From Mobula birostris (lineage: Eukaryota): a stretch of DNA of 64,000 nucleotides. Under the pieces are notes generated by a model. The model did no database searches, had not been told where the DNA came from, and saw nothing but the letters and a program-made list of their open reading frames with translations. The DNA is taken from the NCBI RefSeq assembly GCF_030028105.1, contig NC_092384.1, positions 40,555,553-40,619,552 of the forward strand. The letters are read 5' to 3'. Positions within the stretch are counted from its first letter, which is position 1; each line of letters starts with the position of its first letter. Below, piece after piece: positions 16,947 to 46,380 of this stretch. The position numbers and the translations under genes are program-made.

Positions 16947-18238
16947 GCTAAAAGTGACAAACTGGTATGGAGAGATGAAAAGGGTTAAATCTGTTATTGT
17001 CAGCATACTCATGAAATTGGATACACCTTCAGCAATTGCAAAAGATATTGTTGGGTTTCCAATTTAAAAGTAGTGGATAAGCCAGTACAACATGTGCGCA
17101 AAGGTATTTTCCTTGGCCAGTGAATGTGGCTGGTGAGATTTGAGGTTAATAGCTGCTTCTTCTGAAACCTTTTCTATGTCGCTGTCAAAATATGCCATTT
17201 ACCCCTAGAAATGAACAGTCGATGTATTGGGCCAAAATGTCAACTGTTTGTTCACTTCCTTGGATGGTATCCGACCTGCTGAACTCCTTAGCATTTTGTG
17301 TGTGTTGCTTTGGATTTCCAACATCTGCAGGTTTTATCATGTTTGTTATTTACCTCTAGAGTTGTGCAGTATTTAAGAATGTGTTTCTAATTTCTACATT
17401 AAGAACAAAATCTACCACATATCGAAAGGTGGAATTCTGGTAGAATTTTATTAGTAGCTAAAAATTCTAGCCGCACCTGATTCTAGAAAGAGGTGCATTT
17501 TTGACAATATTTGGTACACTCTCTATACATACGTTGATTTTAAATAAAGGGCATGCCTTTAAACATTTATATATTCATCGGTTTCATCACTAAAATACTT
17601 TTGGTTGGTTCCAAAGCCAAAAGAGATAAAACTTCTTGATAAACTTGAGGACTTGGCTTCCCTTGTAAAATCAGAAATAACTAGCCTGGGCATTATCCCT
17701 GATTCAGATTTGAATTTAAAACCCACATAAAGACCAGAGCAGCAATTCTACACTTAAGAAATATTGCAAATGTATGTACACTTCTGTCATGTAGTGACGC
17801 TGAATAACTAATTCATGTCTTTCTATCGAAGAGACTACATTCCTGCAGTGAATTTTTTATTGACCTTCCAAAGCAATCTATCGACAGACTTCAACTGATT
17901 CAGAAATCTGCTGCTAGACTTTTAACCAAAACCAGGATGAGGGAACATATCACTCCCACCCCAGCTACTCTGCATTGGCTTCCTCTATCTTGATTTTAAC
18001 ATCCTCTTACTTATTTAAAAAGCTCTTAATGGTCTGGGACTGGAATACATCACAGAATCGTTTGCATTTTATAATCCAGCTCAAGCTCTCAGATATTCTT
18101 CCGCTGGTCTCTTAAATTTAAACAACGTCCCTCAAAAGATAAACAACAGGAATTCTGCAGATGCTGAAAATTCAAGCAACACACATAAAAGTTGCTGGTG
18201 AACGCAGCAGGCCAGGCAGCATCTGTAGGAAGAGGTGC

Positions 18239-18274
18239 AGTCGACGTTTCAGGCCGAGACCCTTCGTCAGGACT
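18239..18274 (-). ncRNA. Minimal type I hammerhead ribozyme (Penelope pseudo-LTR)
   Basis: Reverse complement reads agtc-CTGACGA-agggtctcggcct-GAAAC-GTC-gact. Confidence 0.8.
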
Positions 18275-19931
18275 AACTGAAGGAAGAGTGAGTAAGGGAT
18301 TTGAAAGTTGGAGGGGGAGGGGGAGATCCAAAATGATGGGAGAAGACAGGAGGGGGAGGGATAGAGCCAAGAGCTGGACAGGTGATTGGCAAAAGGGGAT
18401 ACGAGAGGATCATGGGACAGGAGGTCCGGGAAGAAAGACGGCGGGGGGGGGTGAACCCAGAGGATGGGCAAGAGGTATATTCAGAGGGACAGAGGGAGAA
18501 AAAGGAGAGTGAGAGAAAGAATGTGTGCATAAAAATAAGTAACAGATGGGGTACGAGGGGGAGGTGGGGCCTTAGCGGAAGTTAGAGAAGTCGATGTTCA
18601 TGCCATCAGGTTGGAGGCTACCCAGACGGAATATAAGGTGTTGTTCCTCCAACCTGAGTGTGGCTTCATCTTTACAGTAGATGAGGCCATGGATAGATAT
18701 GTCAGAATGGGAATGGGATGTGGAATTAAAATGTGTGGCCACTGGGAGATCCTGCTTTCTCTGGCGGACAGAGCGTAGATGTTCAGCAAAGCGGTCTCCC
18801 AGTCTGCGTCGGGTCTCGCCAATATAAAAAAAGGCCACATCGGGAGCACCGGACCCATTATATCACCCCAGTCGACTCACAGGTGAAGTGTTGCCTCACC
18901 TGGAAGGACTGTTTGGGGCCCTGAATGGTGGTAAGGGAGGAAGTGTAAGGGCATGTGTAGCACTTGTTCCGCTTACACGGATAAGTGCCAGGAGGGAGAT
19001 CAGTGGGGAGGGATGGGGGGGACGAATGGACAAGGGAATTGCGTAGGGAGCGATCCCTGCGGAATGCAGGGGTGTGGGGAGGGAAAGATGTGCTTAGTGG
19101 TGGGATCCCGTTGGAGGTGGCAGAAGTTACGGAGAATAATATGTTGGACCCAGAGGCTGGTGGAGTGGTAGGTGAGGACCAGGGGAACCCTATTCCTAGT
19201 GGGGTGGCAGGAGGATGGAGTGAAAGCAGATGTACGTGAAATGGGGGAGATGCGTTTAAGAGCAGAGTTGATAGTGGAGGAAGGGAAGCCCCTTTCTTTA
19301 AAAAAGGAAGACATCTCCCTCGTCCTAGAATGAAAAGCCTCATCCTGAGAGCAGATGCGGCGGAGACGGAGGAATTGCGAGAAGGGGATGGCGTTTTTGC
19401 AAGAGACAGGGTGAGAAGAGGAATAGTCCAGATAGCTGTGAGAGTCAGTAGGCTTATAGTAGACATCAGTGGATAAGCTGTCTCCAGAGACAGAGACAGA
19501 AAGATCTAGAAAGGGGAGGGAGGTGTTGGAAATGGACCAGGTAAACTTGAGGGCAGGGTGAAAGTTGGAGGCAAAGTTATATTCCATCTGGGTAGCCTCC
19601 AACCTGATGGCATGAACATCGACTTCTCTAACTTCCGCTAAGGCCCCACCTCCCCCTCGTACCCCATCTGTTACTTATTTTTATGCACACATTCTTTCTC
19701 TCACTCTCCTTTTTCTCCCTCTGTCCCTCTAAATATACCTCTTGCCCATCCTCTGGGTCCCCCCCCCCTTGTCTTTCTCCCTGGGCCTCCTGTCTCATGA
19801 TCCTCTCATATCCCCTTTGCCAATCACCTGTCCAGCTCTTGGCTCTATCCCTCCCCCTCCTGTCTTCTATCATTTTGGATCACCCCCTCTCCCTCCAACT
19901 TTCAAACCCCTTACTCACTCTTCCTTCAGTT

Positions 19932-19967
19932 AGTCCTGACGAAGGGTCTTGGCCTGAAACGTCGACT
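19932..19967 (+). ncRNA. Minimal type I hammerhead ribozyme (sense to ITFG1)
   Basis: agtc-CTGACGA(19936-19942)-agggtcttggcct-GAAAC-GTC-gact. Predicted cleavage after 19963. Confidence 0.8.
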
Positions 19968-21499
19968 GCACCTCTTCCTAGAGATGCTGCCTGGCCTGCT
20001 GCGTTCACCAGCAACTTTGATGTGTGTTCCCTCAAAAGATAATTAGCAGGTCAGCTTTTTTTTCAACTATGCACCTAAACTGTGGATTTCAGTACCCAAA
20101 CTATAATTAATGCAGACTCAGTTGACACTTTAAAATGCCAGATCGAAACCTATTTATTTAATCATCTTTTTAACTCACATCTTTTTGTCCTTTATTTTCA
20201 TGTTTTTTTTATTTTCATGTTTGCACTTTTGCTGCATTGTAAAGCTTAGTGTAAAGCTTAATGAGCCACATTGTCAAGAAACGTGCTTGATAAATAAAGT
20301 TGTTGTTATTATTTTAGAGTGCAGTGGACAATAAATTTAAGAAAGTAATATTTAAAAGTTTAGTGTTGGTAAAAATGCATGCTTAGTTTTATGATTCTTT
20401 AAACATCCAGTGTTGGTGGAAGCGCAAGGTGATGATAAATTCATTCTAGGACACAGTTAGTTTGTAGGCTGTGTTAACTTGGTTTTTTGAAGTTTCTTAA
20501 ACTGGTACAAAGGCCCTCAGTTGCTCATCCTTACCACACCTGTTTTCCGTCATGATCCAACTATCATTCTCTCATAGTTTCCTCCCAGTTCTGTATGTTT
20601 TTTTGCCAAACCCCTGAGGATGCTATCCTATTTCTTAACTCCCTACTGATTGTACTATTCTGTCACCTAAGACACAAGTGTTTGGGTAAGTCAGTGAATT
20701 ATTTAATAGCCAAAGTTACTCTATATAATAATAGAAAAAAGGAATAAATTTACTTCATGAATAACTTTGAAATGACAAGTCATTTGGTAACTATTTAACA
20801 ATATGGAATAGAAAAAATCAGTGATTAAAACAGTTGAATATGAGCAAAAGGTTTAATTCTGATATTGAAATCCAGACTTTTTGTAGCTGTATTCATCCCG
20901 TCTAGTTAGGAATATTCCCATATACTTCTGATTAATACCTTGTAGATAATGGAAAGATTTTGGAGAATAGGAGTGTGAGTTAGCCTTCTGCTAAAAGACG
21001 AATCAGGATATTGATGGAGGGATATTCAAAACCTGAAAATTTGTAGTTGACTATTATAGTGGAGATGCTTAGTGTCTCTTTCATTTGCACTTTGGTATTG
21101 CAAGTTTTATTTGCCAATTACCAGCCTGTTTCTGTTTATTGCCGTAGTCTTCGGCAGGTAAGTTTATGAAGTACATTATCTAAGGAGAAACAGTGCAATT
21201 ATCTGGAACATGTGAAGATGCCCTTAAGCATACTCACGGTGATGTCCGGGCTGAGATAACTGATTTCCAATAACTGAAACTGTCCTCTTTCTGCTAGTTA
21301 CTAGTGGAGAATTTTCCCTGATTGCCGTTAAATTTAATATTAATCAAGTGTGAATAATCTAGAACAGCTGTCCCTTGGATGTTACTGGTGATGTTTTTGT
21401 AAGGTTATACAGAGCACTTTGAACTTTGTCATGATAGATCAATGTAAGTGATCTAATTGGCTTTACAGTTATGTTTAGGTAACAGAGTGACTTACTGGA

Positions 21500-21790
21500 C
21501 CAATTAAGAGTCCTCCACATAAATTTAGTGTCACATTTAAAGCAGACTCGGTAAGGAAGGCTGGTTATCTTTCCAAAAGGACAACAGTGAACTAGCTAAA
21601 TTTTATAATAACTCTATAGTTTCATGGTCACAATGCCAGCACAAACTTCTTTTTGCTCCAAGTTGATTTAATTATCTGAATTTAAATTCACCAGATGCTT
21701 TGTTAGAGTTTGAGCTCAAGCTCCAAGTCCTTCATCCAGGTCTTTAGATTACTAGTTATATAACTAGAATCTTACAGCACCATGTAATGT
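21500..21790 (-). mobile_element. Old SINE
   Basis: gaatttaaattcacca...tttgagctc...ggtctttagattactagt. Related decayed copies lie at about 31250-31510 and 38260-38370. Confidence 0.55.
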
Positions 21791-26829: not shown

Positions 26830-27750
26830 GATCAGGCTCAACTTTATTATTATCTGACAGTACATACTGTATAACCAAACGAAACATCGTACTTCCGAAC
26901 CACAGTGCACCCGCAAAACATATCAGACCCAGCACATCATACAAAATATTACCATAAATAAGTTAATAAAATATAATTCAAAGTGCATGTAATAAATACA
27001 CAACACAGGTAAACAGTAAATGATACAGTAAACAGCTTGCTGTCCTGGTGGCAAGACCTTGGTGGTGGCCGGGTGTTCATTAGTCTCACAGCCTGAGGGA
27101 GGAAGCTGTTACCCAGTTGGCAGCCCTAGTCCTGATGCTCCTCTACCTCCTTCCTGATGGTGGTAGGTTAAAGAGATTGTGGATTGGGCATTAGGGATCA
27201 TCAACAATATTCCCAATAAATGTCTCAAATGTGGAGGGGGGGCAGGGGAGGAAAATCCCGGTGATCCTCTCGGCGGTTTTTCCTATACTCTGTAGGTCTT
27301 GCGATCTGATGTCTTGCAGCTTCCGTACCGTACAATGATGCATTGATCAGGATACTCTCGAATATTCAGGTACTCTGTTAGAATGGGGGCAGGCCTTGTA
27401 TGCCTCAATCTCTTCAGAACGTGTAGACCCCTTGACTAATGAAGAGGTGATATGGGTCCAGGTTAGATCATCCATGATGTGCACACCAAGGAACGGCAGA
27501 ACCATTGATGAGCAATGGAGTGTGATCAACCTGTGCTTTCCTGTAGTCCGTAATCCTCTCTTTTATTTTGTCCATGTTGAGATTCTGGTTGTTGTTCTCA
27601 CACCATTTGATAAGCCTTTCTACCTCCTCTCTGTATGCCAACTCATCATTGTTGCTGATGAGGCCAATCACCATTGTATCCTCAGCAAACTTGATGATGC
27701 AGTTTGAGCAATTTGGTATCTCTTTGAACAATCTGATCAAAGAATTGTAA
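26830..27750 (-). mobile_element. Rex1/Babar LINE 3' fragment
   Basis: IIKFAEDTMVIGLISNNDELAYREEVERLIKWCENNNQNLN (27468-27740). Confidence 0.88.
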
Positions 27751-29390: not shown

Positions 29391-29603
29391 GTTATTTAAT
29401 TTACAACCTTGAAGATTTGTGCTTACGACAGGAAAAGAAATACAGGGAAAACTTCAGTTTTTAAAGTCATAGTTGACCTAAGCTGAAATATGAAACAATT
29501 ATGTGAGGCACCTATATCTAGACCCTTTGAAATTTCACTTCCATCATGTATCCCTGTCTTCTTGTATTTTTATGCTTTTATTATTGATCTGATCTCTCTG
29601 CAG

Positions 29604-29728
29604 CTGGACAGCTTAGCCAGTCAGCACATTTTGCTCTTCAGCTTCCCTATGTGGTCCTTGGTCTAGGACGTAGTGCAAACTTTCTCGACCATCTTTTTGT
29701 TGGGATTCCTCGTCCTATTGGAGAAAAG
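29604..29728 (+). CDS. ITFG1: ITFG1 coding exon, 4th from last
   Basis: ctctctgcag acceptor and AAG|gtaac donor. Encodes (A)GQLSQSAHFALQLPYVVLGLGRSANFLDHLFVGIPRPIGEK (125 nt), in frame with the previous exon. Confidence 0.97.
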
Positions 29729-29779
29729 GTAACATCACAGCTGGAAACTGTTGTTATTATTTTCATTTTGATATATGCA

Positions 29780-30291
29780 CACTCAGTGGCCACTTTATTT
29801 GGTACACCTGTATACCTGCTCATTAATGTGAATATCTAATCACCTAATCATGTGGCAGCAACTCAATGCATAAAAGCATGCAAGTATGGTCAGTTGTTGT
29901 TCAGACTAAACATCAGAATGGGGAACAAATGTGATCAAAGTGACTTTTACCATGGAATGATTGTGTTTGCTAGACAAGGCGGTTTGAGTAACTCAGAAAC
30001 TATTGATCTCTTGAGATTTTCACACACGGCAGTCACTAGAGTTTACTGAGAATAGTGCAAAAAAAAAAGTCCAATGATCAACAGTTCTGTGGGTGAAAAC
30101 CATGAGAGAGGTCAGAGGAGAATGGCCAGCTGGTTTATGCTGACAGGAAGGTGACAGCGACTCGGATAACCACACATTATAACAGTGGTGTGCAGAAGAG
30201 CATCTCTGAACCCACAACACATCAAACCTTGAAATGGATGGGCTACAGCAGCAGAAGACCATGAAGTACCTAATAAAGTGGCCACTGAATG
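29780..30291 (+). mobile_element. Non-autonomous Tc1-like element (HTH N-terminus only)
   Basis: TIRs cactcagtggccactttatt / aataaagtggccactgaatg followed by TA. Encodes MGNKCDQSDF.HGMIV.ARQGGLSNSET.DLLRFSH. Confidence 0.88.
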
Positions 30292-31790
30292 TATATTACT
30301 GAATTGTTTGAATTGAATGCAAATTCAAATATGTGTTAGCAGCTTCAAAGACTCTTAGTACAAAGTGATAAGAATGAAAAAAATTGAGTAGATTTTCTTC
30401 TCTAGTTGCTTTCCTCAGCCAGTGATGCATCCCCTCAGTCATTGAGTTGGAGATGTCAGTGGGCTTCTGTTTGACATAAATTCAGAAACAGTTTCTTTCA
30501 GAGTTCGAGTAAGTTTATTATCAAAGTTCATATACTATCTTGAAAATTAATTTCCTTGAAGTAATTTAAAGGAAAAAAAAGAAATAGGTTATAAATATAC
30601 GAAAAGCTATGCATAAACAAAGACTGACAAATGCCAATGAAATTAATACTGAGAACATTTAATCAGAGCTTCAGTAAGCTGCAACAAACAGAAATCATGA
30701 TTAAGTTGCAGCAAAATAAAACCAGAGCTCTTTCCTTATAGAAAAGCAAGAATGAGGAATAGTTTAGTACTACAGATCGAGAGTAAAATCAACCCTATGT
30801 ACCAGGGCAGTGCAGACTTCAGACGTGATTCATGGTACCCAATCATTTCTATGCTTTCTAGGATGATCGCTGCATTATATTAGCTTTACAATGAAAGGCC
30901 TTTACAGTTTAAAATGTTAAGTCATTGATTTTTTTTAGTTCTATTGCTTTAGGCATAAATCTGGTGCTGGGAGAATGTGTGGTGCTTTTTTCCTCAAGCC
31001 TTTGTCAATTCTATATTGCAGTTGACAACCGTTTGGAAGCCCAGAAATGTAGGTTATCTTGCACCCCCTTTGTTTAGGGAAGTAACTCAGTAGGACGTAC
31101 TGTAGATAGAAAGCCACTATATTGTAACAAAAGACAGGCTGTTTAAATATTTACATTTAGTTTTTTACACAGTCATAATCTGTCAAATAATAGTAGATAA
31201 TGACTGATACTTAGTATTAGGTGCTCGGTTTTAAAAAGCGTAATTTCTTTGTTCACCTGAAGTCTGTGTCACTGGCAAGAGCTGCCTTTATTGCCTTTGA
31301 ACTTCTGGACAGTTAAGAGTTAATCACATTGTGGTGGGTCTGTTGTCATACATAGACTAGACCAGATATTCTTCCTCAAATATCTAGTAGCTCCCAGTGT
31401 AATTTTTTTTGGACATAATTATTTACTTAGATTTAAACTCCCACCTCTAGAGGTGGCATTCAGATCCATTGTCCAGCATTCTGATTAAAGTCCAGTAACT
31501 TCAGCAGTCTTTTTTTTTCTACCACTCTCCATTTCCTTTAAAATGCTTGCACTTCGCCTGTGTTTGCAGTTTGAATATAATTGTCCATGGACTTCAAAGT
31601 TTTAGGGACATATCAACCTTGTATTACTAACATTACTGTAAAGCTGTCAGCAAAAAATCTTGTTACTGTTAGTGCTGCATCGCTGTAATGTGCCATACTG
31701 TCTAATGATTCCACTTATTTTAAATATTTAACGCCATTTTGAAGTGATATTCTGCCTAATTATTTTCTGCTCTGTTTTCACTTTTAACAG

Positions 31791-31873
31791 TCTGTAAGAA
31801 AACAAGAATGGACAGCTATCATTCCAAATTCTCAGCTTATAGTAATTCCATATCCTCATAATTCACCAAAAAG
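31791..31873 (+). CDS. ITFG1: ITFG1 coding exon, 3rd from last
   Basis: cttttaacag acceptor and AG|gtaaaa donor. Encodes SVRKQEWTAIIPNSQLIVIPYPHNSPK+AG (83 nt, phase 0 to 2). Confidence 0.97.
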
Positions 31874-32772
31874 GTAAAAGTAATTTTATTTCTCTGCAGT
31901 AGTAGTCAATCTGATGGTGCGTGTGAAAATAAATTGTTCACCTGACCAAGCTCCCAAAATATCGGGTTATTCCTCCTAATAACTGTGCATATTACTTTAA
32001 AATTACTGTGCAATAATCCAGTTTTAAATTAATATCCATGTAGTCATTAATGCTAAGATTCTTTGAATCTTACTTCATAACAATGGTAATTTCTGTGTCA
32101 GCAAGTACATTACCTAATTTACCAGTCAACGATTTTGTATGTGGAACTTTGCTGAATATTGTACACAGTGTTTCTCTTTTAATTCTGCACAAGGAAGAGC
32201 TCTAATATATTTCATGGAGAATCTCATCAAGTGCATTTGCAATTAGGGTATTAAGAAGAAATACCAAAATACGTCCCTGTATTCTAACTTTAAATGTTAT
32301 CACTCAAACCTTTGCTCTGATTGAGCAACAGTTACCTGGTCCATTTGAAAGTCATTCTTGAGACCCAAGGCAGCTGTCTTATGTTGGTCTAACTTTTAGC
32401 AGTAGGCTTAAAGTAAGTCTATTTGTTAAAGGAATAAACCAAAGAGGAGCTTTCTGTGTCCTGTACATTCACAGCAAATGGCTGACTTGTAGAGCTCTTC
32501 CCCGGGCTGCTCATTCTATTTTGTGACCTTCTGACAGCAATAGTGTGATCTGAGGTAAATTAATTAAGTACTAAAGCTGGAGTTTATCAAGCATTCTCTC
32601 TTTTAAAGTGCTAATTATTTCTTATCATGTTGTACACCTCTATCAAGTCACCTCGCATCTTTGTTCACTCTAAAGAGAAAAGCCCTAGCTCGTTCAACCT
32701 ACCCTCCAATCCAGGCAGCTCAGTTGTACCCAAAAACTGAGATTGTCATTCTAAGTGCAGAGCAATTACTGT

Positions 32773-33436
32773 CGAGACCCAACGCCTTCTATATATTGGC
32801 GAGACCCGACGCAGACTGGGAGACTGCTTTGCTGAACACCTACGCTCTGTCCACCAGAGAAAGCAGGATCTCCCAATGGCCACACATTTTAATTCCACAT
32901 CCCATTCCCATTCTGACATATCTATCCACGGCCTCCTCTACTGTAAAGATGAAGCCACACTCAGGTTGGAGGAACAACACCTTATTATCCGTCTGGGTAG
33001 CCTCCAACCTGATGGCATGAACATCGACTTCTCTAACTTCCGCTAATGCCCCACCTCCCCCTCGTACCCCATCCGTTATTTATTTTTATACACACATTCT
33101 TTCTCTCACTCTCCTTTTTCTCCCTCTGTCCCTCTTGCCCATCCTCTGGGTTTTTTCTCCCCTCCCCCTTTTCTTTCTCCCTAGGCCTCCTGTCCCATGA
33201 TCCTCTCATATCCCTTTCGCCAATCCCCTGTCCAGCTCTTGGCTCCATTCCTCTCCCTCCTGTCTTCTCCTATCATTTTGGATCTCCCCCTCCCCCTCCC
33301 GCTTTCAAATCTCTTACTAACTCTTCTTTCAGTTAGTCCTGACGAAGGGTCTCGGCCCGAAACGTCGACTGTACCTCTTCCTAGAGATGCTGCCTGGCCT
33401 GCTGCGTTCACCAGCAACTTTGATGTGTGTTGCTTG
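32773..33436 (+). mobile_element. Penelope-like 3' fragment (GIY-YIG end + pseudo-LTR)
   Basis: Near-identical to the reverse complement of 18170-18835. Possible TSD gagcaattactgt (32760-32772) / gagcaattgttgt (33436-33448). Confidence 0.93.
33335..33370 (+). ncRNA. Minimal type I hammerhead ribozyme (sense to ITFG1)
   Basis: agtc-CTGACGA(33339-33345)-a-gggt-ctcg-gccc-GAAAC-GTC-gact. Predicted cleavage after 33366. Confidence 0.83.
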
Positions 33437-34827
33437 AGCAATTGTTGTATAGATTTACAATACTTTTGCTTTAGTGCATTACATAAACTGGTTCTAGGGT
33501 AGGATTTTAACAACCTTAAAAATTATTCTCTCTGAAGAATATTGTATTTCAGTCACTAAATTATTTTACTAGTGTGTATTGTCATCCTTTCTTACCCTAT
33601 AATGCCTTATTATTTTAGCATTTTCATTAGACTATTGTCTTTGCAGCCTACTTTCCCCAAGTCTTCCTGAAGTCACCTCACGTTGCTCACCCTATGTATC
33701 CATGCTAGGTAACATACTGAGAGCAGGACAAAGAAACAAAGTGGTTTAAAACCCAAAATGGGGTGATGATGGGAGCTACTAACCAGGCATCTTGCAGATT
33801 TATTCTGGGTTCTATGCTGAGTTAGATGTGATAGATCTAAGGGATAGTGATAGAACCTTTAGACAGTTTTGTCAACCATATTATGGGGGGGGTGAAAAAC
33901 TGTTGTTACTTTGCTGTCTAAAATCCAGTGACACATCTTGATGTGAATGAAAAGGTTCTGCTATTGTCAGAGAGCACAGGAAATATAGCCACTGAAGTAT
34001 GAAAAGGGAGATACTGACAATGTCATCTTATGAGTTGGTACCTTCAAGGAAGAAAAAACAAGCCTGGCACAATCTTTATAACTAACACATATGATAAACA
34101 TTCTTGGTAATTTACAGTCCTGATTGATGACAAAACCTAACACTAAATCTATACAAATATTATTTAAGCTTTATCTGCATATGGTCCCCAATTTTCATGA
34201 ATCAATGAAATGGGTCATGTACCTGCATTCTGTGCAGAGTCTATTTAAGAGAATTGGTTAGGAGATGGAGGATTTCAGTTGTGTAAAGTAACATAAGAAA
34301 TTGAGGATGTTCTCTCAGAATAAACAGGGTTGAGAGGAGCTGTAATAGAAAACGTCAATATCATGCCAAATTTTGATAAATAAGGAAGGATTTTTTTCAT
34401 CAAAGAATCGCAGAGTCGTTAGAATTTTGATTTTCATAGTGTTATTGCTTTTATGATCTATAATGTGTTGCTTGAAAAGATAACAAGTGGATTCAACAGA
34501 ACTTTAAATGGAATTTAGTATGTTCGTGAAAAGAAACAATGTGAGTGTTGTATGAAAAGAACAAGAGATTGCAGCTAATTGGAGAGCAATCTCTGAGTCA
34601 GTACACCATGATCAAATGGCCTCCAAATAAATCATATGATAATATGATACTGATTTTCTTAGATTACACTTAAAATGTAAATATTTAAAACACTTTCTAT
34701 TATAAGGTATTTATTTATTGAAGGAAATATCAGCCATAAATTATTTGAAATAAGAGGATAGTATTGAGCACAAAATAGTTACTGAACTATAAACTTTATT
34801 AATTTTTTTCTGCTTTTCTTTTCACAG

Positions 34828-34945
34828 CTGGAGTGCCAAATTGTATCTTACTCCCAGTAACATTGTACTGCTCACCGCCATAGCCTTAATTGGAGTCTGC
34901 CTTTTCATTTTGGCTATAATCGGTATTTTACACTGGCAGGAAAAG
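34828..34945 (+). CDS. ITFG1: ITFG1 penultimate exon, containing the transmembrane helix
   Basis: ttttcacag acceptor and AAG|gtact donor. Encodes (S)WSAKLYLTPSNIVLLTAIALIGVCLFILAIIGILHWQEK (118 nt), with a hydrophobic TM segment. Confidence 0.97.
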
Positions 34946-35058
34946 GTACTTCTCTCAGATTTCAGTTAGTAGTCCTGCAATATGCACAAGTAGTAAGATT
35001 TTGTGTCTTATTAAACAATATTGGAACAAATATCAAAACTATTCAAATATTATATTTA

Positions 35059-36673
<1,615 letters not shown>

Positions 36674-39600
36674 TATATATGAATCAATGCCTTTAGCAAA
36701 TTGATATATATGGATGTAAGGAATATGGTCCTTTCTCATCCTCAGGATATCCAAGAGGCTTTAACAACCAGTTAAATATCTTTCTTAAATCAGCTCACTT
36801 TTGTAATCTAGAAACTATTGCAGCTAAATTTTGTCCATGAAGCACCCGTGATCAGGAACATAATAATGACCATGGTATCTCTTTTAGTGTATTAATTGAG
36901 GGAGGGGTAAGTATTGACCAAGACATCAGGAGTATCTTCTTTGCTGTTCTTAGAAAAGTGGCATGGTAGGCAAAAACTGTGAAGACACACAGTAACTACG
37001 CAAGTAACTATTTACAAAAAAAAATCATAGAAAGATTGGAAGTAAGGGTTCTTATCATGTGGTGTGTGAAAGAAGCTTGCAGGGTAGATAATTGTACCTC
37101 AATTATTGATTACACAAATTTATATTTTTACAAATCTGAAAAAGTTGTATCTAGAACAAGTCTAAGCATATTACTGTGGGTCAGAGGTTCCCACAAAAGC
37201 ACAGAAAGTTATTTTAATGTTTAAAATGATCACATAAATGTTTAATTGAAGACTTGGAAATATCTATTGTAACCTTTTATACCTTCCCTTAATAACTACA
37301 GAATCTTCCAAGTAGTATTTGAATGAGGTAGCATTAACTAAATGATACAATTTACAACCATGCAAGAGCAGCAACTGCAGCAAGTTTCCCAGTGCCTTGA
37401 CATCATTAAAAGTGGCAATGTTGCGGTTTTGTGGATAGGTTGGAGGAAGGGGGAGAAAGTTAAACTTGTCGAAGAGTTGAAATTCATTGTGTTTTAATGA
37501 AGTGACAATGAATTGATAACCAGAAGTACTAGACAGGGATGGTGATAAATGCAGCAGATACAAAGTGAGAATTTTTGTTAGGTACAGTGAATTATCGCAA
37601 TGTGGAAATACAGTGTTTATTGACTGATTCTAAGATTTGGAGGTTCCTGTTTACAAGTGATAATGGAAGTGTAAAATTCCTTCAGTTAGGTATTTGTGTT
37701 AACTACATGTCTTTCAATGGTATTTTGGTTAAATTTCACAGTTCTAATTTGGCCAAGATAAATGCATCATGATGAAAGACCATTCAATAAGATCTCTGTA
37801 AAGTCTTAACAGTGTTGAATTGATCAATGTTGGGAAGTATAACAATACCAAAGAGGGACTAGTAAACAATTGAAAAAAGCACAAATCATTGAAATAACCA
37901 TTAAAAGCTATGGCAGCTTGGGTAATATCAGACAGGCCACATATATCCTTGGGTTAGCCATGAGTACAAATGACAATTTACAATGCCTATGTCACAAAGA
38001 AGAATAGGTTGCAGGAGAACAAAAGTTATCTCCACCAATATAGTAGTGGGGCTTAGCTATGAATATCAGAAGTGGTTGCTGAGGTAGCCTCTGCCCAATG
38101 TTTAACTAGGTAATCTACAAAGAAGGCAACAGGTTCCTCCCCAAATTCCTGCCCACCCAACAGCAATAAAGGTAAAAAGCTTCTGGGACTGCTGCCACAG
38201 AGGTCTCTTCTAGAGCTCCAGATGAAAACAACCAGGTTTACAGAAACATCCTTTAAATCAATGGGACCAGATTAATTGAATTAAATTTTACAACTTGCCA
38301 TAGTGAGATTTGAACCCTGATCATTGGATTATTGGTCCAGTATCCAAATTATTAGGTTACAACCTACTGCTGTGTCTCTACGTATGTGTTTGTTCATCTT
38401 TCTGAAGTAATTTTCTATTTTAAGTGTGATGCATAGAATTGATGTAATGCTCTGCTGCTTTCAGTGCCTGGAATCCAATCTTATGAAGGTATTAAACACA
38501 GGCACCCCACAAGCTCAACTATCCAAATGAACTCTTATTAATCTGTGTTCAAAGTCATAAACTTGTCTAGACTTATATTTCACTAGTAGGGTATTAGAAT
38601 TCACCCATGAGATTGTTCCAAGATCTAAGTCCATGCAGCAACATAGGCTGATTGTATTTGACATTCCTGCTCTCACAAACTTCAAATCAGTCAAAGTACC
38701 TCCTCCTGAGCCCACATTGAGTTTTGTCTTTGTGTATTGCCCAAGGAACTGATTGAAACCCCTTTACATTATCATTAGACATATCCATGTGGAATCACTA
38801 TTTAGAAGAGGTACTGGGAACTATTAGTGTCAGTAAAACTGCATTTCGTTCTTCAGGGATAAAATGGGACATTTTTTCAAAATGGTTCATTGCTAGTCTG
38901 ATGATGCAGTCTATTTTTCTGCACATCACACTGACAACACAGTGTAATCCCTCCAGAAGCAATGCCCTTCAGAACATTTAAAGAAATTCATATCTTCAAA
39001 ACAATGAAGGCAGATGAATATTAAACTATTAGCTTTGGTGTTTCAACTAGTTAACAGACCTTATTTTCTCATAGGTTGAAGCAATGTGTCTTGTTTATTG
39101 ATTTACAGTTTTTAGGAATCATACCTTTTGGGCAGTTTTAATTTTTTCTGTGATAGTTATTTGAAATGAAAATGATGATTGATTTAGTGCAACACTGTGT
39201 AGAACAGTCAGGAAAACGTTCTGGTTAGCAAAGTGATTAGTCCCAGCATAGCACAAGCAAGTGGGGACTGAGATTGGGCAAAGATTTATGTTGTTACTAC
39301 TCCACCCAAATCATGCAGTACTTAATCCTCTCGCCAATCTGAAATGTATTCTTAAATTCATGAGTTCAGTGAACCCATATGAAATCAGCAGTGAAGGGAA
39401 GCATGTTCTGAACGGTTGAGAGTTTTTAAAGATGTATTGTTTTTTCACTGCTGCAACTTAAATTCTTCAAATAAATACTGATAGAGAGACAGATGAAGGG
39501 TGTGGTAAGCATGCTTACTTCACACAGAAGCTGGCTGTCTGGATCAGTTTTTGCCAGATCTATAATTACCAGAAGATCTTCAGAGATTTCATATCACAGA

Positions 39601-39796
39601 AAAAGCAATAGCCATGTTTTGTCACCTGCTGGAATCTGTCAAACAATCTCTGCCTCTGCTTCAGGTTCATTTCACCATCAGCAATATAATTATAATTCTC
39701 AGCGTAAAGACAAACTAAGCAAATTATTCACGTTCTCACTATCAAATGTGGAATTTTATTGAGAAAGTAACGTGCAGATATTTCAGCACTACAGTA

Positions 39797-40667
39797 TTTC
39801 AAAGCACATAACTGTTACCATAAGCAGCCCTGAGGTTTGTTTCCTTGCGGGCATACTCAGTAAAATCCAAGAACCATAATGGAGTCAATGAAAGACTGCA
39901 CCCAACAGGGCAGACAAACAACCAATGTGCAAAAGTCAACAAAATTGTGCAAATACAAAAGAAAAAAGAAATAATAATAAGTAAGTAAGTAATAAATACC
40001 AAGAACATGAGATGAAGAGTCCTTGGAAGTGAGTCCATAGGTTATGGGAACAGTTCAATGATGGGGCGAGTGAAGTGATCCACAGTGGTTCAAGAACCTG
40101 ATGCTTCATGCATAATAACTGTTCCTGAACCTGGTGGTGTGAGTCCTGATGCTCCTATACCTTCTACCTGATGGCAGCAGTGAGAAGAGAGGATAATCTG
40201 GGTGAGGGAGTCCCTGATGATGGATGCTTCTTTCCTGCAAAAGCACTCTGTGTAGATGTGCTCAGTGGTATGGAAAGTTTTACCCGTGATGGACTGGGCT
40301 GTAACCACTACTTTTTGAAGGATTTCCTGTTAACAGGCATTGGTGTTTACATACCAGGCTATGATGCAGCTAGTCAATATACTCTTCACCACACATCTGT
40401 AAAAGTCTGTCAGATTTTTAGATGTCATGCCAAATCTTTGCAAACTCCTAAGTATGTAGAGCCACTGCCATGCTTTCTTCAAAATTGCACTTACATGCTG
40501 GGCCAGGACAGATGCTCTGCAATGATAGCACCAAGGAACTTAAAGCTGCTGACCCTCTCCACCTCTGATCCCCCAATGAGGACTAGCTCATGGACCTCCA
40601 GTTTCCTCCTCCTGAAGTCAATAATCAGCTCTTTGGTCTTGCTGACATTGAGTGAGATGTTGACTTC
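39797..40667 (-). mobile_element. Rex1/Babar LINE 3' fragment
   Basis: Same family as 790-1700 (ccaaggaacttaaagctgctgaccctctccacctctgatcccccaatgaggac). Confidence 0.88.
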
Positions 40668-41849
40668 CTGAAGTCAAGGCTTTTTTTAAAATTTGGAACC
40701 CTTTAGGCCCATCACAGAAGCTGATATATTTCTTCCACATCATCATTACCAGGTGAGCTGCTAGTGAAAAGCAGAATCTTGCAAGTGTTTGTCCTTTCCT
40801 AGGCAGATCATTCCACTGTAGAGAAATTAGAATCAAGAGATTTGATTTTTGGACACTGCTTGTAATCCTAGAGTTCCAAGGTAGTTCACTGTTCTGGAGT
40901 GAATTGTGCAGTATGGCATATTGGTGAAGACATCCATTGCAAATAGATGGATCATGCTGTGCATAATATAATAATGCTACATCAATAATCTATGTCATTT
41001 TAGATCCTGATATTTAATCTGATATCCCATTCTAATTTAAAATGTCTGTAAATGTGGCCAGCACCATTCTTTATGTTCCCCCCTGTCTGGGTCCTTAACT
41101 AAATTTGGTTTACACATATAGGAATGCTTCACTCAGTGTGTAAAACATTCAAATTATGTGACAATCAGTATGTGGAAAGTGTAAGCTATGATCTGAGATT
41201 GTAGCAATTCTTCCAGTGCGAGAATGCAGTAAGAACAAGGATTTTTAAATTTCAGATTTATATAGAATATTGATAAGTTGTTGGTGTTGTTACGTTGAGC
41301 ACAGCTTGAGCTCTCGTTGCAGTAAAATAAGGTATTTGAAGATTCATTCACTAGCCTTGACCACTCATGAGACTTTACTGAACCCCTTTTGACACAGCAT
41401 CGCGATCTGCTGAGCTTTATTTCTTAAATTCGTAATGTGGTTCTCTGTGTCTACTACCATCGAAGCATGCATTTGAAAAATTTCGGGACCTGTGCAAATA
41501 GAAGACATCTCTGCTATCTTCCATCTTCTGTGCAATGTTTCCCTAAACCTTGGCACTTACTTGCTCTCACAACATCCCACACATCATTTTTTCTCAGGTA
41601 AAACATATTTGCTGAAAAACTGTCAGCATGCAGTCCCACTCCCTCTGAGAAGTGCACAATAGTTTTAACTAGAGCTTACCACCATTGTTGTATCCAGACA
41701 TCCAGCTAATCAGTTAGTGCTGGCTGGGTAGTGAAATCATTGTAATGAGCACACAATGCCAAGCTGGTGTACTGCCTGCATTGCAATTGATCGACATGGG
41801 TTCATTGGCCGCGTACCTGCATCTATTTTCAGGAGCCATCAAAGTTTGC

Positions 41850-43080
41850 TTCTCAAGTCAAGCCAAGTCACTTTTTATTGTCATTTTGACCATAACTGCT
41901 GGTACAGTACACAGTAAAAACGAGACAACGTTTTTCAGGACCATGGTGCTACATGAAACAATACAAAAACTACACTGAACTACGTAAAGCAACACAAAAA
42001 CTATGCTAGGCTACAGACCTACCCAGGACTGCGTAAAGTGCACAAAACAGTGCAGGCATTACAATAAATAATAAACAAGACAATATGCACAGTAGAGGGC
42101 AGTAGGTTGGTGTCAGTCCAGGCTCTGAGTGTTGAGGAGTCTGATGGCTTGGGGGAAGAAACTGTTACATAGTCTGGTCGAGAGAGCCCGAATACTTTGG
42201 TACCTTTTGCCAAATGGCAGGAGGGAGAAGAGTTTGTATGAGGGGTGCGTGGGGTCCTTTATAATGCTGTTTGCTGTACAGATGCAGCATGTGGTGTAAA
42301 TGTCTGTAATGGCGGGAGAGAGACCCCGATGATCTTCTCAGCTGACCTCACTATCCGCTGCAGGGTCTTGTGATCCGAGACGGTGCAATTTCCGAACCAG
42401 GCAGTGATGCAGCTGCTCAGGATGCTCTCAATACAACCTTTGTAGAATGTGGTGAGGATGAGGGGTGGGAGATGGACTTTTCTCAGCCTTCGCAGAAAGT
42501 AGAGAAGCTGCTGGGCTTTCTTTCCTGTGGAGCTGGTGTTGAGGGACCAGGTGAGATTCTCCACCAGGTGAACACCAAGAAATGTGGTGCTCTTAACGAT
42601 CTCTACGAAGGAGTCGTCGGTGTTCAGCGGAGAGTGATCGCTCCGTGTCCTCCTGAAATCAACAACCATCTCTTTTGTTCACATTCAGAGACAGGTTGTT
42701 GGCTCTGCACCAGTCCATTAGCCGCTGCACCTCTCCTCTGTGTGCTGAGCCATCATTCTTGCTGATGAGACCCACCATGGTCGTGTCATCGGCAAACTTG
42801 ATGATGTGGTTTGAGCTGTGTGTTGCAGCACAGTCATGGGTCAGCAGAGTGAACAGCAGTGGACTGAGCACACAGCCCTGGGGGGGCCCCCGTGCTCAGT
42901 GTGATGGTGTTGGAGATGCTGCTTCCAATCCGGACTGACTGAGGTCTCCCAGTCAGTAAGTCTAGGATCCAGTTGCAGAGGGAGGTGTTCAGGCCCAGTA
43001 GGCTCAGCTTTCCAATCAGTTTCTGAGGAATGATTGTGTTGAATGCTGAACTGAAGTCTATGAACAGCAGTCGAATGTAC
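41850..43080 (-). mobile_element. Rex1/Babar LINE RT 3' fragment
   Basis: [13 protein letters not shown]...IIKFADDTT (42659-42871) and FLGVHL...[13 protein letters not shown] (42259-42669). Confidence 0.92.
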
Positions 43081-43489
43081 CTGTCTTTTTTGTGTGCTTC
43101 CTTAGTTTAACGGACAAAGTAGTTAAGAAGAATACTTTGTGGAATTGGGGGCTTGTACGGTTCAGCGCTGCCTCATGACAGAAAATGGTGGCACATAAAA
43201 TGAGGCTTGGCATAGAGGTCTTTGTGCAACACCCCCAATACTTGGTCAGATCTGGGACTTTATACGACACAGAGGTGTAGAGATTATCTTTCTCTCTGTT
43301 CTCCATGTCAAGGACTTTATTTTATGTCCTGGTGTAGTTAAGGGAGGCATCTCCAAGGCCTTTCCCCTTGTGAATTCTATTTGATGCTGTGTGTTGTTCT
43401 GCCAATAGCATTGAGATGTTGCAAATGAAGGAATACCAACAGTGACACCAAGTGTCGGTTGGTGAAGATAGATTTTAACAGAAGTTTAC

Positions 43490-44737
43490 TTTGGCTCTGT
43501 CAGATTGCATGGGGATTGTGAGTGAACAGCCCTTTTCAAGTCCAGCCCCAAATTCTCAATTGGATTGAGGTCTGGACTCTGATTTAGCCACTCCAGGGCA
43601 TTAAGTTTGTTGTTTTTAAGCCATTCCTGTGTAGCTTTGGCTTTATGCTTGGGGTTATTGTCTTGCAGGAAAACAAATCTCCTAACTTGCAGTTCTCTTG
43701 CAGACTGCACCAGGTTTTCCTCCAGGATTTCCCTGTATTTTGCTGCATTCATTTTACCCTCTACCTTCAGAAGCCTTCCAGGGCCAGCTGCAGTGAAGCA
43801 TCCCCACAGCATCATGCAGCCACCACATTGCTTCGCGGTAGGGATGGTGTGTTTTTGATGATGTGCAGTGTTTAGTCTGATGGCCAAAAAGCTCAACTTT
43901 GCTTTCATCAGACTATAGAACCTTCCAGCTGACTTCGGAATCTCCCCCGTGCCTTCTGACAAACTAGCTGAGATTTCATGTGAAATTTTTTCAACAGTGG
44001 CTTTCTCTTTGCCAGTCTCTCATAAAGCTGCAACTGACGAAGCACCCATGGCACCAGTTGTTGTACGCGCAGTCTCTCCCATCTCAGCCACTGAAGCTTG
44101 TAACTCCTCCAAAGTTGTCATAGATCTCTTGGTGGCCTCCCTTACTAGTCCCCCCCTTGCATTGTCACTCAGTTTTTGAGGACGGCTTGCTCTCAGCAAA
44201 TTTTTTCCATTTTCTTTCCATTTCTTGACGATTAACAATATACTCCAAGGGATATTCTCTGACTTGAAAATTTCCTTGTATCCATCTCCTGACTTGTGCT
44301 TTTCAATAACCTTTTCGCGGAGTTGCTTGGAGCGTTCTTTTGGAGTGAACCAGGATACTGACTCACCAGCAGTTGGACCTTCCAGATATAGGTGTATTTT
44401 TACTACAATCAATTGAAACACCTTGACTGCACACAGGTCTCCAAAAACAGATCGTCATTTAACTAATTATGTGACTTCTGAATCCAGTCGGCTGCACCAG
44501 TGATGCTTTGGTGTGTCATATTAAAGGGGATAAATACTTATGCAAACAATTATTTTGTGTTTTATACTTGTCATTAATTTAGATCACTTTATAGAGGTCT
44601 GTTTTCACTTTGACACAGTCGAATCTTTTTCTGTTGATCAGTGTCAAAAGAGCCAAATGACGTCCACTGTGATTCAAAGTAGTAAAACAATAAAACATTA
44701 AAACTTCCAAGAGGGTGAATACTTTCTATAGGCAGTG
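43490..44737 (-). mobile_element. Tc1 transposon, decayed, one end missing
   Basis: GGCMMLWGCF...LQDNNPKHKAK...SPDLNPIENL (43486-43962) and HTH region (44020-44421). End gtgaatactttctataggcagtg|TA at 44737. Confidence 0.9.
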
Positions 44738-45177
44738 TACTTCCAGTCTGAATTGCCTTCATTGTCTTGGTTATCTAAATGAGCACCATCATGTTAGCCT
44801 TTTGAAGCACTTCTTGCTTAATATGACGGATTCTCCTCTGTGGAAAGATATTCTCCTGTGTTCAAGAGGACATTCTCCCTTTAATCCACGTGTAATCTCA
44901 TTGCATTATCATTTAATGCTCTAGTTATTTTTTTAACTTGCATTTAGCTGTTAGAGATTTTGCAGAGAAAGACCAAAACCCTGTCTCCTTTCATGTATTC
45001 TCATTGTTTAATTACAGCACAGGTCTTTATTCAAAAATTTGCTTCAGCCTGGTTAAGTACCTACAGAGCAAGTTCAATCTAGGATTAAAAAAATAAGTTA
45101 GAGCAAACTATTATACTCATACTATGCTGTGTGATAAATGATATTTGTTTTTAATCATCATTTTCCTTTAATTCCAG

Positions 45178-45237
45178 AAAGCAGACGACCGGGAAAAGCG
45201 CCAGGAAGCACACAGATTCCATTTTGATGCCATGTGA
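45178..45237 (+). CDS. ITFG1: ITFG1 terminal coding exon (cytoplasmic tail)
   Basis: attccag acceptor. Encodes KADDREKRQEAHRFHFDAM followed by TGA, the conserved ITFG1/LINKIN C-terminus. Confidence 0.98.
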   Translation, partial: KADDREKRQEAHRFHFDAM

Positions 45238-45810
45238 AATACAATGGCTCCTGAGGAACAATTGTTACAATGCTAGATCTAAAATATTACTTCCAATCAG
45301 CAGTAAATGGTGAATGTTTAATGTTGAATTGTACATAGTTTAACTGCTTCCTCATTTTTATTAATTAAAATCATTTTTTCTGGTTTTCTGGGCAGGGGTT
45401 GCAAATAACTCAAGATGTATATTTTGGGAATTAAGAATAATTTAAAGCTAAATTATGCATTTTGTTGTAATACTGAATATTTGAAAATGTGTGTTTGTGT
45501 TGTTCGAATATGGTGAATTGTTCTGTTATTAATGTCTTCAAATGTTTACTTAAATGGTCTTTGTGGAATGCATGTTTATTAATTCTGGTTGCTAAAAATC
45601 ATACATTAAACTTTAATGATTTAAAATAATTAATGTTTCAAATTCTTTTTTATACTACTGTAATACAACACTCAGACTGATACCTTTCTGTGAGACTGGA
45701 TGACCCTTGAGTTCCACTAATTAAATACATACACTGCTAACTACTTTCTGGCAAGATCCATAACTTTAAATTATGCATGCATATGGATGGCTAACGTACT
45801 TCACAATAAA
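45238..45810 (+). promoter_or_regulatory. ITFG1: ITFG1 3' UTR with candidate polyadenylation signals
   Basis: AT-rich sequence after the stop. ATTAAA at 45605-45610 and AATAAA at 45805-45810; a further AATAAA lies at 46432-46437. Pumilio-type TGTACATA at 45330-45337. The true cleavage site cannot be determined from sequence. Confidence 0.6.
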
Positions 45811-45833
45811 TAGACAGCAGGTTGATTGAACCG

Positions 45834-46380
45834 CAAACAACAGGAATTCTGCAGATGCTGGAAATTCAAGCAACACACATAAAAGTTGCTGGTGAACGCA
45901 GCAGGTCAGGCAGCATCTCTAGGAAGAGGTGCAGTCGACGTTTCAGGCCGAGACCCTTCGTCAGGACTAACTGAAGGAAGAGTGAGTAAGGGATTTGAAA
46001 GTTGGAGGGGGAGGGGGAGATCCAAAAAGATAGGAGAAGACAGGAGGGGGAGGGATAGAGCCGAGAGCTGGACAGGTGATAGGCAAAAGGGATACGAGAG
46101 GATCATGGGACAGGAGGTCCGGGAAGAAAGACAAAGGGGGGGGGGGGGACCCAGAGGATGGGCAAGGGGTATATTCAGAGGGAGAAAAAGGAGAGTGAGA
46201 GAAAGAATGCGTGTATAAAAATAAGTAACAGATGGGGTACGAGGGGGAGGTGGGGCATTAGCGGAAGTTAGAGAAGTCGATGTTCATGCCATCAGGTTGG
46301 AGGCTACCCAGATGGAATATAAGGTGTTGTTCCTCCAACCTGAGTGTGGCTTCATCTTTACAGTAGAGGAGGCCGTGGAT
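45834..46380 (-). mobile_element. Penelope-like pseudo-LTR fragment with hammerhead
   Basis: Near-identical to 18141-18695. Hammerhead on the minus strand at 45933-45968. Confidence 0.93.
45933..45968 (-). ncRNA. Minimal type I hammerhead ribozyme
   Basis: agtcgacgtttcaggccgagacccttcgtcaggact is the reverse complement of an intact core. Confidence 0.8.

What the first reader, a model, noticed from the sequence alone, without database searches (positions are those of the whole stretch)
18143..46380. Four core-intact loopless hammerhead ribozymes around ITFG1, two in the sense strand of the pre-mRNA
Seen: four near-identical CTGACGA-stem II-GAAAC-GTC cores. Two are on + (19936, 33339) and two on - (18239-18274, 45933-45968). 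Older degenerate copies lie at about 4397 and 55490. Stem III is only the palindrome AC/GT with no loop. Established: Penelope pseudo-LTRs carry minimal type I hammerheads, and such very short stem-III forms generally self-cleave as dimers. Inference: the two sense copies sit in different introns flanking exons 29604-29728 and 31791-31873. They could pair with each other in cis, or with other family transcripts in trans, and cut the nascent ITFG1 RNA. That would be a repeat-derived, pairing-dependent RNA-cleavage system in a host gene.
Basis: partly seen in the sequence, partly recalled or inferred. Interest (0 to 1): 0.7.

Follow-up and report, generated by a model that had tools for sequence, protein, structure and literature searches.

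The report
Penelope hammerhead debris in ray ITFG1
The four small self-cutting-RNA motifs are really there, but they are the tail ends of a very abundant Penelope-type jumping gene of a known kind that landed in and beside a ray's ITFG1 gene, and they likely do not cut the host RNA.

Summary
Observation confirmed; interpretation mostly not. Four minimal, loop-III-less type I hammerhead cores lie at the stated places, two sense in ITFG1 introns. They are 3' ends of 5'-truncated copies of a young Neptune-like Penelope-like element (RT plus GIY-YIG); the 28-nt core pattern occurs 43,618 times in this 4-Gb ray genome. The four are three insertions: 18239(-) and 19936(+) are the arms of one inverted insertion with a 15-bp target-site duplication, so the sense core is predicted fully paired to its own antisense arm. 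Three of four lack the canonical G10.1-C11.1 pair. In 1.84 Mb of intragenic DNA from 7 genes, copies show no sense depletion (86 sense/78 antisense; descriptor-intact 21/16), cores decay about like flanks, and ITFG1 holds five intact sense copies, not two. 5' ends of copies cluster just before the core, not at the cut site. PLE minimal hammerheads are published (PMC4209133), cleave weakly even as dimers, and one needs the element's protein (PMC11167929). RNA ends could not be tested (contigs only). This scan has noted the same family many times (123 notes, at least 19 genomes). New member of a known kind; low interest.

The parts
18128..18142 (.). Left copy of 15-bp target-site duplication of insertion 1
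   Evidence: identical 15-mer at 18128 and 20028
18143..19580 (-). Insertion 1, long arm: 5'-truncated Neptune-like PLE (RT C-terminal part, Zn-finger linker, GIY-YIG end with stops/frameshift, 3' UTR, hammerhead, long tail); antisense to ITFG1
   Evidence: 96-97% identical to ORF-bearing copies L031-L036
18238..18275 (-). Minimal hammerhead 1 (C3 at 18270, C17 at 18243; T at 11.1); antisense to ITFG1
19577..20027 (+). Insertion 1, inverted short arm (~450 nt, short end, no tail); 4-nt overlap with the long arm at the junction; sense to ITFG1
   Evidence: (I6, I7, I13, I17)
19931..19968 (+). Minimal hammerhead 2 (C3 19936, predicted cut after 19963; T at 11.1); predicted fully paired with 18243-18270 in the pre-mRNA
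20028..20042 (.). Right copy of the 15-bp target-site duplication
29604..29728 (+). ITFG1 coding exon (AG/GT bounded)
   Evidence: spliced joint in contigs of 4 of 4 runs
31791..31873 (+). ITFG1 coding exon
32787..33437 (+). Insertion 2: 5'-truncated PLE (GIY-YIG C-terminus, 3' UTR, hammerhead, short end); candidate 8-bp TSD at 32760 and 33436; sense to ITFG1
33334..33371 (+). Minimal hammerhead 3 (C3 33339, predicted cut after 33366); the only one of the four with G10.1-C11.1
34828..34945 (+). ITFG1 coding exon (transmembrane segment by similarity)
45178..45830 (+). ITFG1 last exon: stop at 45235-45237, 3' UTR, AATAAA at 45805-45810; the 3' end is inferred
   Evidence: one contig of run X9 spans 45176-45830
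45835..46380 (-). Insertion 3: 5'-truncated PLE with long tail, just past the putative poly(A) signal; antisense to ITFG1; no TSD of 6 bp or more found
   Evidence: (D1, D2)
45932..45969 (-). Minimal hammerhead 4 (C3 45964, C17 45937; T at 11.1)
4398..4482 (+). Old degenerate remnant of a related tail; core broken
   Evidence: (D15)
55487..55625 (+). Old degenerate remnant (78.7% to the young family); core broken; outside ITFG1
   Evidence: (D10, D15)

Best explanation
The four cores are the terminal hammerhead motifs of three 5'-truncated insertions of a young, very abundant Neptune-like Penelope retroelement in a ray genome, and the two sense copies in ITFG1 introns are likely inert passengers that are spliced out uncut. 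Shown: element identity, insertion anatomy, copy number, no strong sense depletion in the sample. Predicted: 19936 is sequestered by its own mirror arm; both sense cores prefer a local alternative hairpin or an inactive duplex over the active dimer. Inferred from published PLE work: the motif serves the element's own RNA, cleaves slowly and probably needs the element's protein; copies were laid down by target-primed reverse transcription from uncleaved RNA, starting at one of two sites in the tail.
For: Each core lies ~300 nt 3' of a GIY-YIG-type C-terminus. The window arm is 96-97% identical to 6 of 6 fetched long copies; two of their ORFs give RVT_1 and GIY-YIG hits, a CX4CXXC linker and YIDD. 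43,618 exact core-pattern matches, 0 in the reversed control. 15-bp TSD and one-sided tail at insertion 1, as drawn for PLEs in PMC8557442 (passages). 98% of the sense arm and all of the 19936 core pair with the upstream arm in the MFE fold. Orientation in 1.84 Mb of 7 genes: 86 sense/78 antisense of 164; intact 21/16 of 37; solo intact 13/12 of 25. Non-CpG core positions mutate at 2.4% against 1.9% in flanks (49 copies, p=0.48). Of 84 young copies, 34 begin at -20..+19 of C3 and 1 begins at the cut site. Only 10,434 of 43,618 keep C11.1, and 9 of 9 motifs in the long-ORF loci have T there. Contigs of 4 of 4 runs show normal splicing across the intron holding 33339. PMC4209133: no monomer cleavage, low dimer cleavage. 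PMC11167929: an anole PLE hammerhead cleaves only with the element's protein, cleavage is not needed for insertion, and no RNA-seq reads end at the site.
Against: No cleavage assay or raw-read end data exist here. Folding energies omit tertiary contacts and proteins. The 33339 copy has a textbook minimal core and no inverted arm within 5 kb. The orientation sample is 7 genes (0.05% of the genome); the 95% interval for the sense share of intact copies is 0.41-0.71, so weak bias is not excluded. A crude first test showed cores better kept than flanks (2.6% v 4.7%, p=0.009) before gaps and three subfamily sites were removed. After that weak trends remain: CpG core 7.1% v 12.2%, p=0.08; in sense copies p=0.051; young intact 19/28 sense v 14/30 antisense, p=0.12. 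The runs laid are not shown to carry these insertions. The title of Lunse et al. (seen only in a reference list) says such variants do cleave as dimers.
Confidence: 0.88

Rival explanations
1. Occasional trans cleavage without host function: when the element is expressed, its RNA and protein would pair with the better copy (33339) and cut a small share of nascent ITFG1 transcripts, a side effect too weak to be selected against.
For: 33339 has an intact core and G10.1-C11.1. Family sequence is abundant in RNA-guess contigs (summed depth 230,218 over the 33339 bin against 256 for the spliced ITFG1 contig in X1; all copies pile there and strand is unknown). Many ORF-intact copies exist. PMC11167929 shows protein-assisted cleavage for another PLE.
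Against: Active B+B dimer -16.7 v inactive duplex -34.1 kcal/mol. Antisense copies are as common as sense ones and would out-compete by about -295 kcal/mol duplexes. The next exon is 1.46 kb away. No sense depletion.
Confidence: 0.08
2. One reading: the two sense copies pair in cis across 13.4 kb and cut out the stretch holding two exons, acting as a regulatory cleavage system of ITFG1.
For: Both copies are sense and flank two exons; a nested double-hammerhead can be drawn with all 22 pairs valid; precedent for intronic ribozymes that affect the host mRNA exists (CPEB3, PMC10919898 passages).
Against: 19936 is predicted locked by its own arm and lacks G10.1-C11.1. Three more intact sense copies lie upstream in ITFG1, so the pairing is arbitrary. 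The copies belong to a young family of over 40,000. Spliced contigs include both exons. At 3.5-4.1 kb/min (rate quoted in PMC10919898) the partner appears 3-4 min later, long after the 940-nt-distant arm.
Confidence: 0.02
3. The inverted insertion affects ITFG1 as a long double-stranded RNA (editing, altered splicing), not as a ribozyme.
For: Arms 87-98% complementary over ~450 nt, 940 nt apart; MFE fold pairs them.
Against: Deep in a 22.5-kb intron, about 9.6 kb from the nearest exon; A>G differences in contigs cannot be told from differences among copies; 49 of 164 sampled copies have an inverted partner, so it is common.
Confidence: 0.02

Closest known systems
Minimal hammerheads (min-HHR) in pseudo-LTRs of metazoan Penelope-like elements (Xena, Poseidon, Neptune; Cervera and De la Pena 2014, PMC4209133; parts 1-2 of 4 read)
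   Same: Type I core, no helix III loop, palindromic 15.1-16.1, extra nucleotide between 9 and 10.1, 4-5 bp helix I, mostly dispersed single copies from truncated PLEs, opposite-strand pairs close together, thousands per genome.
   Different: Ray host, not named in the parts read (supplementary figures not seen); 43,618 copies against ~4,000 (coelacanth) and ~9,000 (Xenopus); helix II only 4 bp; 76% of exact-pattern copies have T at 11.1 instead of the conserved G10.1-C11.1.
Neptune/Nematis-type EN+ Penelope-like elements (PMC8557442, passages)
   Same: RT then C-terminal GIY-YIG, CX2-5CxxC linker, 5' truncation, adjacent inverted 5'-truncated copy, 30-40 bp tail at one end only.
   Different: No RT tree built, so Neptune versus Nematis is not resolved; no direct 5' pLTR seen in the 6 long loci fetched.
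Anolis Poseidon element PAc (Frangieh et al. 2024, PMC11167929; parts 1-2 of 4 read)
   Same: Hammerhead in the pLTR; two clusters of 3' ends about 30-35 nt apart matching two RT start sites (here +64..+72 and +95..+102 from C17); template ends not set by the cut site.
   Different: Different PLE clade; protein dependence not tested here.
Host-acting intronic ribozymes (CPEB3 HDV-like, PMC10919898 passages; ultraconserved intronic hammerheads, title only)
   Same: Self-cleaving motif sense in a vertebrate intron.
   Different: CPEB3 is single-copy, conserved and active as a monomer (half-life 2-3 min in the passage read); these are young dispersed repeats without stem III and without a sign of selection.

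Membership tests
Metazoan PLE min-HHR (type I) | Core CUGANGA / GAAA / UH in type I order | tested here: met
   4 of 4 copies
Metazoan PLE min-HHR (type I) | No helix III loop; palindromic 15.1-16.1 allowing a 4-bp intermolecular stem | tested here: met
   ACGT in 4 of 4; dimer pairs valid
Metazoan PLE min-HHR (type I) | Extra nucleotide between 9 and 10.1; helix I of 4-5 bp | tested here: met
   extra A and 5-bp helix I in 4 of 4
Metazoan PLE min-HHR (type I) | Conserved G10.1-C11.1 pair | tested here: inconclusive
   Met in 1 of 4 (33339); G-U in the other 3; 10,434 of 43,618 genome-wide
Metazoan PLE min-HHR (type I) | Located in the terminal repeat of a PLE | tested here: met
   ~300 nt after the ORF stop in window copies and in L031-L036
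Metazoan PLE min-HHR (type I) | Self-cleavage as a dimer | not testable with these tools
   Needs an assay; only contigs were on offer
Rfam hammerhead families | Covariance-model match | tested here: not met
   No hammerhead family among 3 hits at E<=1; that the models expect a stem III is my recalled explanation
EN+ Penelope-like element, Neptune-like | Single ORF, RT then C-terminal GIY-YIG | tested here: met
   RVT_1 E 2e-5/5e-6 and GIY-YIG E 2e-3/2e-4 in 841- and 863-aa frames, all just under Pfam's curated cut-offs; YIDD and GVIY..YIG motifs
EN+ Penelope-like element, Neptune-like | CX2-5CxxC linker before the endonuclease | tested here: met
   2 of 2 ORFs examined
EN+ Penelope-like element, Neptune-like | Inverted 5'-truncated copy and one-sided 30-40 bp tail | tested here: met
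   Insertion 1; 6 of 6 fold-back loci
EN+ Penelope-like element, Neptune-like | Clade placement by RT phylogeny | not tested
   No reference PLE set on hand
Host-acting intronic ribozyme | Signature of selection (sense bias or core kept better than flanks) | tested here: not met
   weak non-significant trends reported; sample of 7 genes
Host-acting intronic ribozyme | Conservation at the orthologous site in other species | not testable with these tools
   No relatives' genomes held; no listed contig bridged an insertion junction
Non-LTR retrozyme (tandem hammerhead repeats) | Two or more consecutive tandem units with a hammerhead | tested here: not met
   Copies are dispersed or inverted, 13.4 kb or more apart on one strand

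The most novel reading that the evidence does not exclude
Ray introns carry tens of thousands of half-ribozymes that become live when the Penelope RNA and protein are expressed, so derepression of one retroelement would cut nascent transcripts, ITFG1 at 33366 among them, across the transcriptome; the spread of the T11.1 lineage would then be an attenuation that lowered this cost.
Probability: 0.05. Interest if true: 0.7.

Novelty: new member of a known kind. Interest (0 to 1): 0.13.

Why it matters
If the cis or trans cleavage were real it would be a retroelement-triggered way of cutting host pre-mRNAs, which is not described in the papers searched. The evidence points instead to ordinary transposon debris. 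What remains of use: this ray family offers over 40,000 young copies and many intact ORFs, a large natural sample for asking what PLE hammerheads do. Its copy ends (two 3' clusters; 5' ends just before the core, not at the cut) fit the in vitro picture from the anole element that insertion uses uncleaved RNA.

Tried and rejected
Rfam scan: no hammerhead hit. Pfam on three window ORF fragments: nothing above cut-off; identity came from homologs and long copies. Sequencing runs: no RNA holder listed on record and all 22 listed runs are kept as contigs, so RNA ends could not be read; 'no places where many molecules begin or end' is no evidence. No listed contig bridged an insertion junction or an empty site, so presence of these insertions in those organisms is unknown. 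Genome forward/reverse counts (21,607/22,011) say nothing on gene orientation and were not used as a test. The dimer energies had an index error in stem III and are replaced. The crude core-versus-flank test (p=0.009) was replaced after gaps and 3 subfamily sites were dropped; both are reported. CpG decay as the source of T11.1 was rejected: T is at 46 of 71 copies there while neighbouring CpG bases change in 6-16%. Local excess: 3 insertion events against 0.70 expected cores per 64 kb (Poisson p=0.03; p=0.006 for 4 cores), but 3 of 27 64-kb tiles in the sample, ITFG1 included, reach 3 cores and the window was chosen for the feature; not treated as meaningful. Lunse et al. [quoted passage not shown] Searches for shark/batoid PLE hammerheads or intronic orientation bias listed no paper whose title or abstract start addresses it; subscription papers and supplements were not seen.
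Full report
Observation. The pattern CTGANGA-N4..30-GAAAC matches the window 7 times against 1.03 expected; 4 of the 7 are the near-identical cores at 18246-18270(-), 19936-19960(+), 33339-33363(+) and 45940-45964(-). Read as RNA, each has a 5-bp stem I, CUGACGA, an extra A, a 4-bp stem II with a 4-nt loop, GAAA, the palindrome ACGU and C17. Only 33339 has G10.1-C11.1; the other three have G-U there. The remnants near 4398 and 55490 have lost CUGA. Rfam reports no hammerhead (0 of 3 hits).

Host gene. The exon at 29604-29728 is 100% identical to T-cell immunomodulatory protein (ITFG1) of three batoids, so the host is a ray. ITFG1 runs on + over about 261 kb of G000:C19. Window exons lie near 7022-7103, 29604-29728, 31791-31873, 34828-34945 and 45178-45237. 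So 19936 and 18239 share one 22.5-kb intron, 33339 is in a 2.95-kb intron 1.46 kb before the next exon, and the 45835-46380 copy starts 25 nt after an AATAAA, likely past the mRNA end.

What carries the motifs. Each core lies about 300 nt after a GIY-YIG-type C-terminus and stop. The window's longest arm encodes a fragment whose best homologs are ray and shark proteins with PF26215, some with RVT_1 or GIY-YIG. Searching the genome with one of these gives 104,957 first-look candidates; of the 68 scored, most have no stop inside the match. The window arm is 96-97% identical to 6 of 6 fetched loci. Two of their frames (841 and 863 aa) hit RVT_1 and GIY-YIG just below Pfam's cut-offs and have YIDD and a CX4CXXC linker, the Neptune/Nematis layout described in PMC8557442 (passages). 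The 28-nt core pattern occurs 43,618 times, about once per 92 kb, with 0 in the reversed control; 10,434 of these keep C11.1. T11.1 marks a lineage, not decay: it is in 46 of 71 sampled copies while neighbouring CpG bases change in 6-16%, and in 9 of 9 motifs in the long-ORF loci.

Anatomy. The four cores are three insertions. 18143-20027 is one event: a 1.44-kb minus arm with the long tail, an inverted ~450-nt plus arm with the short end, a 4-nt overlap at the junction and a 15-bp TSD. This is the inverted, one-tailed arrangement described for PLEs. In the pre-mRNA the antisense arm is made first; folding 18141-20030 pairs 98% of the sense arm with it, including every base of the 19936 motif. 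Without the arm, both sense cores prefer an upstream hairpin that takes up CUGA; stem I probability is 0.00-0.01 with 60 nt of context, though 0.5-0.6 with 20 nt. The active A+B dimer scores -14.1 kcal/mol against -33.1 for the best duplex of the same 38-mers (the dimer values were mis-indexed). These are secondary-structure predictions and omit tertiary contacts and proteins.

Orientation test. I fetched the rest of ITFG1 and 1.58 Mb inside six clusters of same-strand CUB exons (my gene names for them are inferred, and nested genes are not excluded): 1.864 Mb, 1.84 Mb intragenic. Hits outside ITFG1's bounds, hits not spanning the core and duplicates within 15 nt were dropped. Of 164 core-spanning copies 86 are sense and 78 antisense (95% interval 0.45-0.60). 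Descriptor-intact copies: 21 and 16 (0.41-0.71); with G10.1-C11.1: 5 and 8; intact without an inverted partner: 13 and 12. Intact share is 21 of 86 sense and 16 of 78 antisense (p=0.58). ITFG1 itself has 19 copies, 5 intact and sense. Strong depletion is excluded in this sample; weak bias is not.

Decay test. A crude comparison had cores better kept than flanks (2.6% v 4.7%, p=0.009). Restricting to substitutions in 49 fully spanning young copies and dropping 3 subfamily sites gives 2.4% v 1.9% at non-CpG sites (p=0.48) and 7.1% v 12.2% at CpG sites (p=0.08; sense only p=0.051); young copies are intact in 19 of 28 sense and 14 of 30 antisense (p=0.12). These trends are unresolved and run opposite to purging of active sense copies.

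Where copies begin and end. Among 84 young copies reaching the tail, 3' ends cluster at +64..+72 and +95..+102 from C17 (the reference ends at +102), like the two RT start sites of the anole element (PMC11167929, parts 1-2 of 4). 5' ends cluster just before the core: 34 of 84 at -20..+19 from C3, 1 of 84 at the cut site (these are alignment starts, and fold-back junctions shift some). Head-to-head junctions within 2-20 nt of the core occur at 1,245 places; 6 of 6 fetched are 220-259-bp palindromes with one long and one short arm, 3 of 6 with a 14-bp TSD. If cleavage made the template's 5' end, copies would start at +28. They do not, which fits insertion from uncleaved RNA (inference).

RNA data. 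No holder is on record as RNA and all are contigs. Contigs of 4 of 4 runs (4 studies) join 29728-31791, 31873-34828 and 34945-45178 at GT..AG. One run matches unique window pieces without a difference, but no run is shown to carry the insertions, and contigs cannot show ends.

Literature. PMC4209133 (parts 1-2 of 4) defines this motif: no helix III loop, extra base before 10.1, helix I of 4-5 bp, found in Xena, Poseidon and Neptune PLEs, mostly as dispersed single copies, no monomer activity and low dimer activity. [quoted passage not shown] PMC11167929 found cleavage only with the element's protein and no RNA-seq ends at the site. A 2026 preprint (10.64898/2026.07.22.740005; part 1 of 5 and passages) includes one chondrichthyan and reports depletion of tandem retrozymes from Xenopus introns; the word 'orientation' does not occur in it, and its supplements are closed. 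CPEB3 (PMC10919898, passages) is the model for a host-acting intronic ribozyme, with a half-life of 2-3 min as a monomer. Lunse et al. was not held. Searches listed no paper on ray PLE hammerheads; supplements of PMC4209133 were not seen and may list some.

Earlier notes of this scan. 123 notes in at least 19 genomes hold the same words, and several in this genome reach the same reading, including the antisense lock and the palindromic stubs. I had stated my reading before opening them; they are not independent support.

Verdict. Real motifs, known kind, ordinary context. The element-level facts are shown; inertness in ITFG1 is predicted and inferred (0.88). Low-level trans cleavage remains possible (0.08); the cis regulatory system is unlikely (0.02). 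Interest 0.13.

Noticed in passing
G000 genome-wide; L037-L042; G000:C19:40371730 and 40389972 in ITFG1: 1,245 head-to-head junctions within 2-20 nt of the hammerhead's 5' edge; 6 of 6 fetched are ~230-bp palindromes with one long-tail and one short arm, 3 of 6 with 14-bp TSDs. Suggests the template's 5' end or an RT stop lies just before stem I.
   Followed up: partly
G000 genome-wide; L031-L036: 76% of exact-pattern cores, and 9 of 9 motifs in the long-ORF loci, have T at 11.1 instead of the canonical C: the currently dominant lineage spread with a weakened or re-registered stem II.
   Followed up: partly
window 45805-45835: Insertion 3 starts 25 nt after an AATAAA; a contig of a related organism (X9) ends at 45830, so the element sits at or just past the likely ITFG1 poly(A) site.
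   Followed up: partly
window 35052-36680: A 1.6-kb near-perfect palindrome (arms 85-95% complementary, 73-nt centre) in the last ITFG1 intron, probably a foldback DNA-transposon derivative (my inference from its inverted ends); it gives a sub-threshold Rfam MIR2619 hit (61 bits, gathering 113).
   Followed up: no
G000:C19:40626404-40626640 (+), 7 kb past the window: A CUB-domain exon on the same strand just downstream of ITFG1, likely NETO2 (several database proteins are NETO2-ITFG1 fusions); the window's last 18 kb may hold its 5' part.
   Followed up: no
window 16776-16933: Two tandem copies of a 79-nt unit (90% alike) in the ITFG1 intron.
   Followed up: no
window 1029-1861, 39983-40662, 27566-27709, 42673-42965: Older LINE-like repeat fragments (72-87% alike), not identified.
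   Followed up: no
window 32768-32786: About 19 nt at the 5' junction of insertion 2 resemble a short duplicated piece of the element's own sequence, between the candidate TSD and the element.
   Followed up: no
P0124, P0131: Annotated ray isoforms of CHID1 and DIPK1C contain this element's ORF fragment (exonisation or annotation artefact).
   Followed up: no
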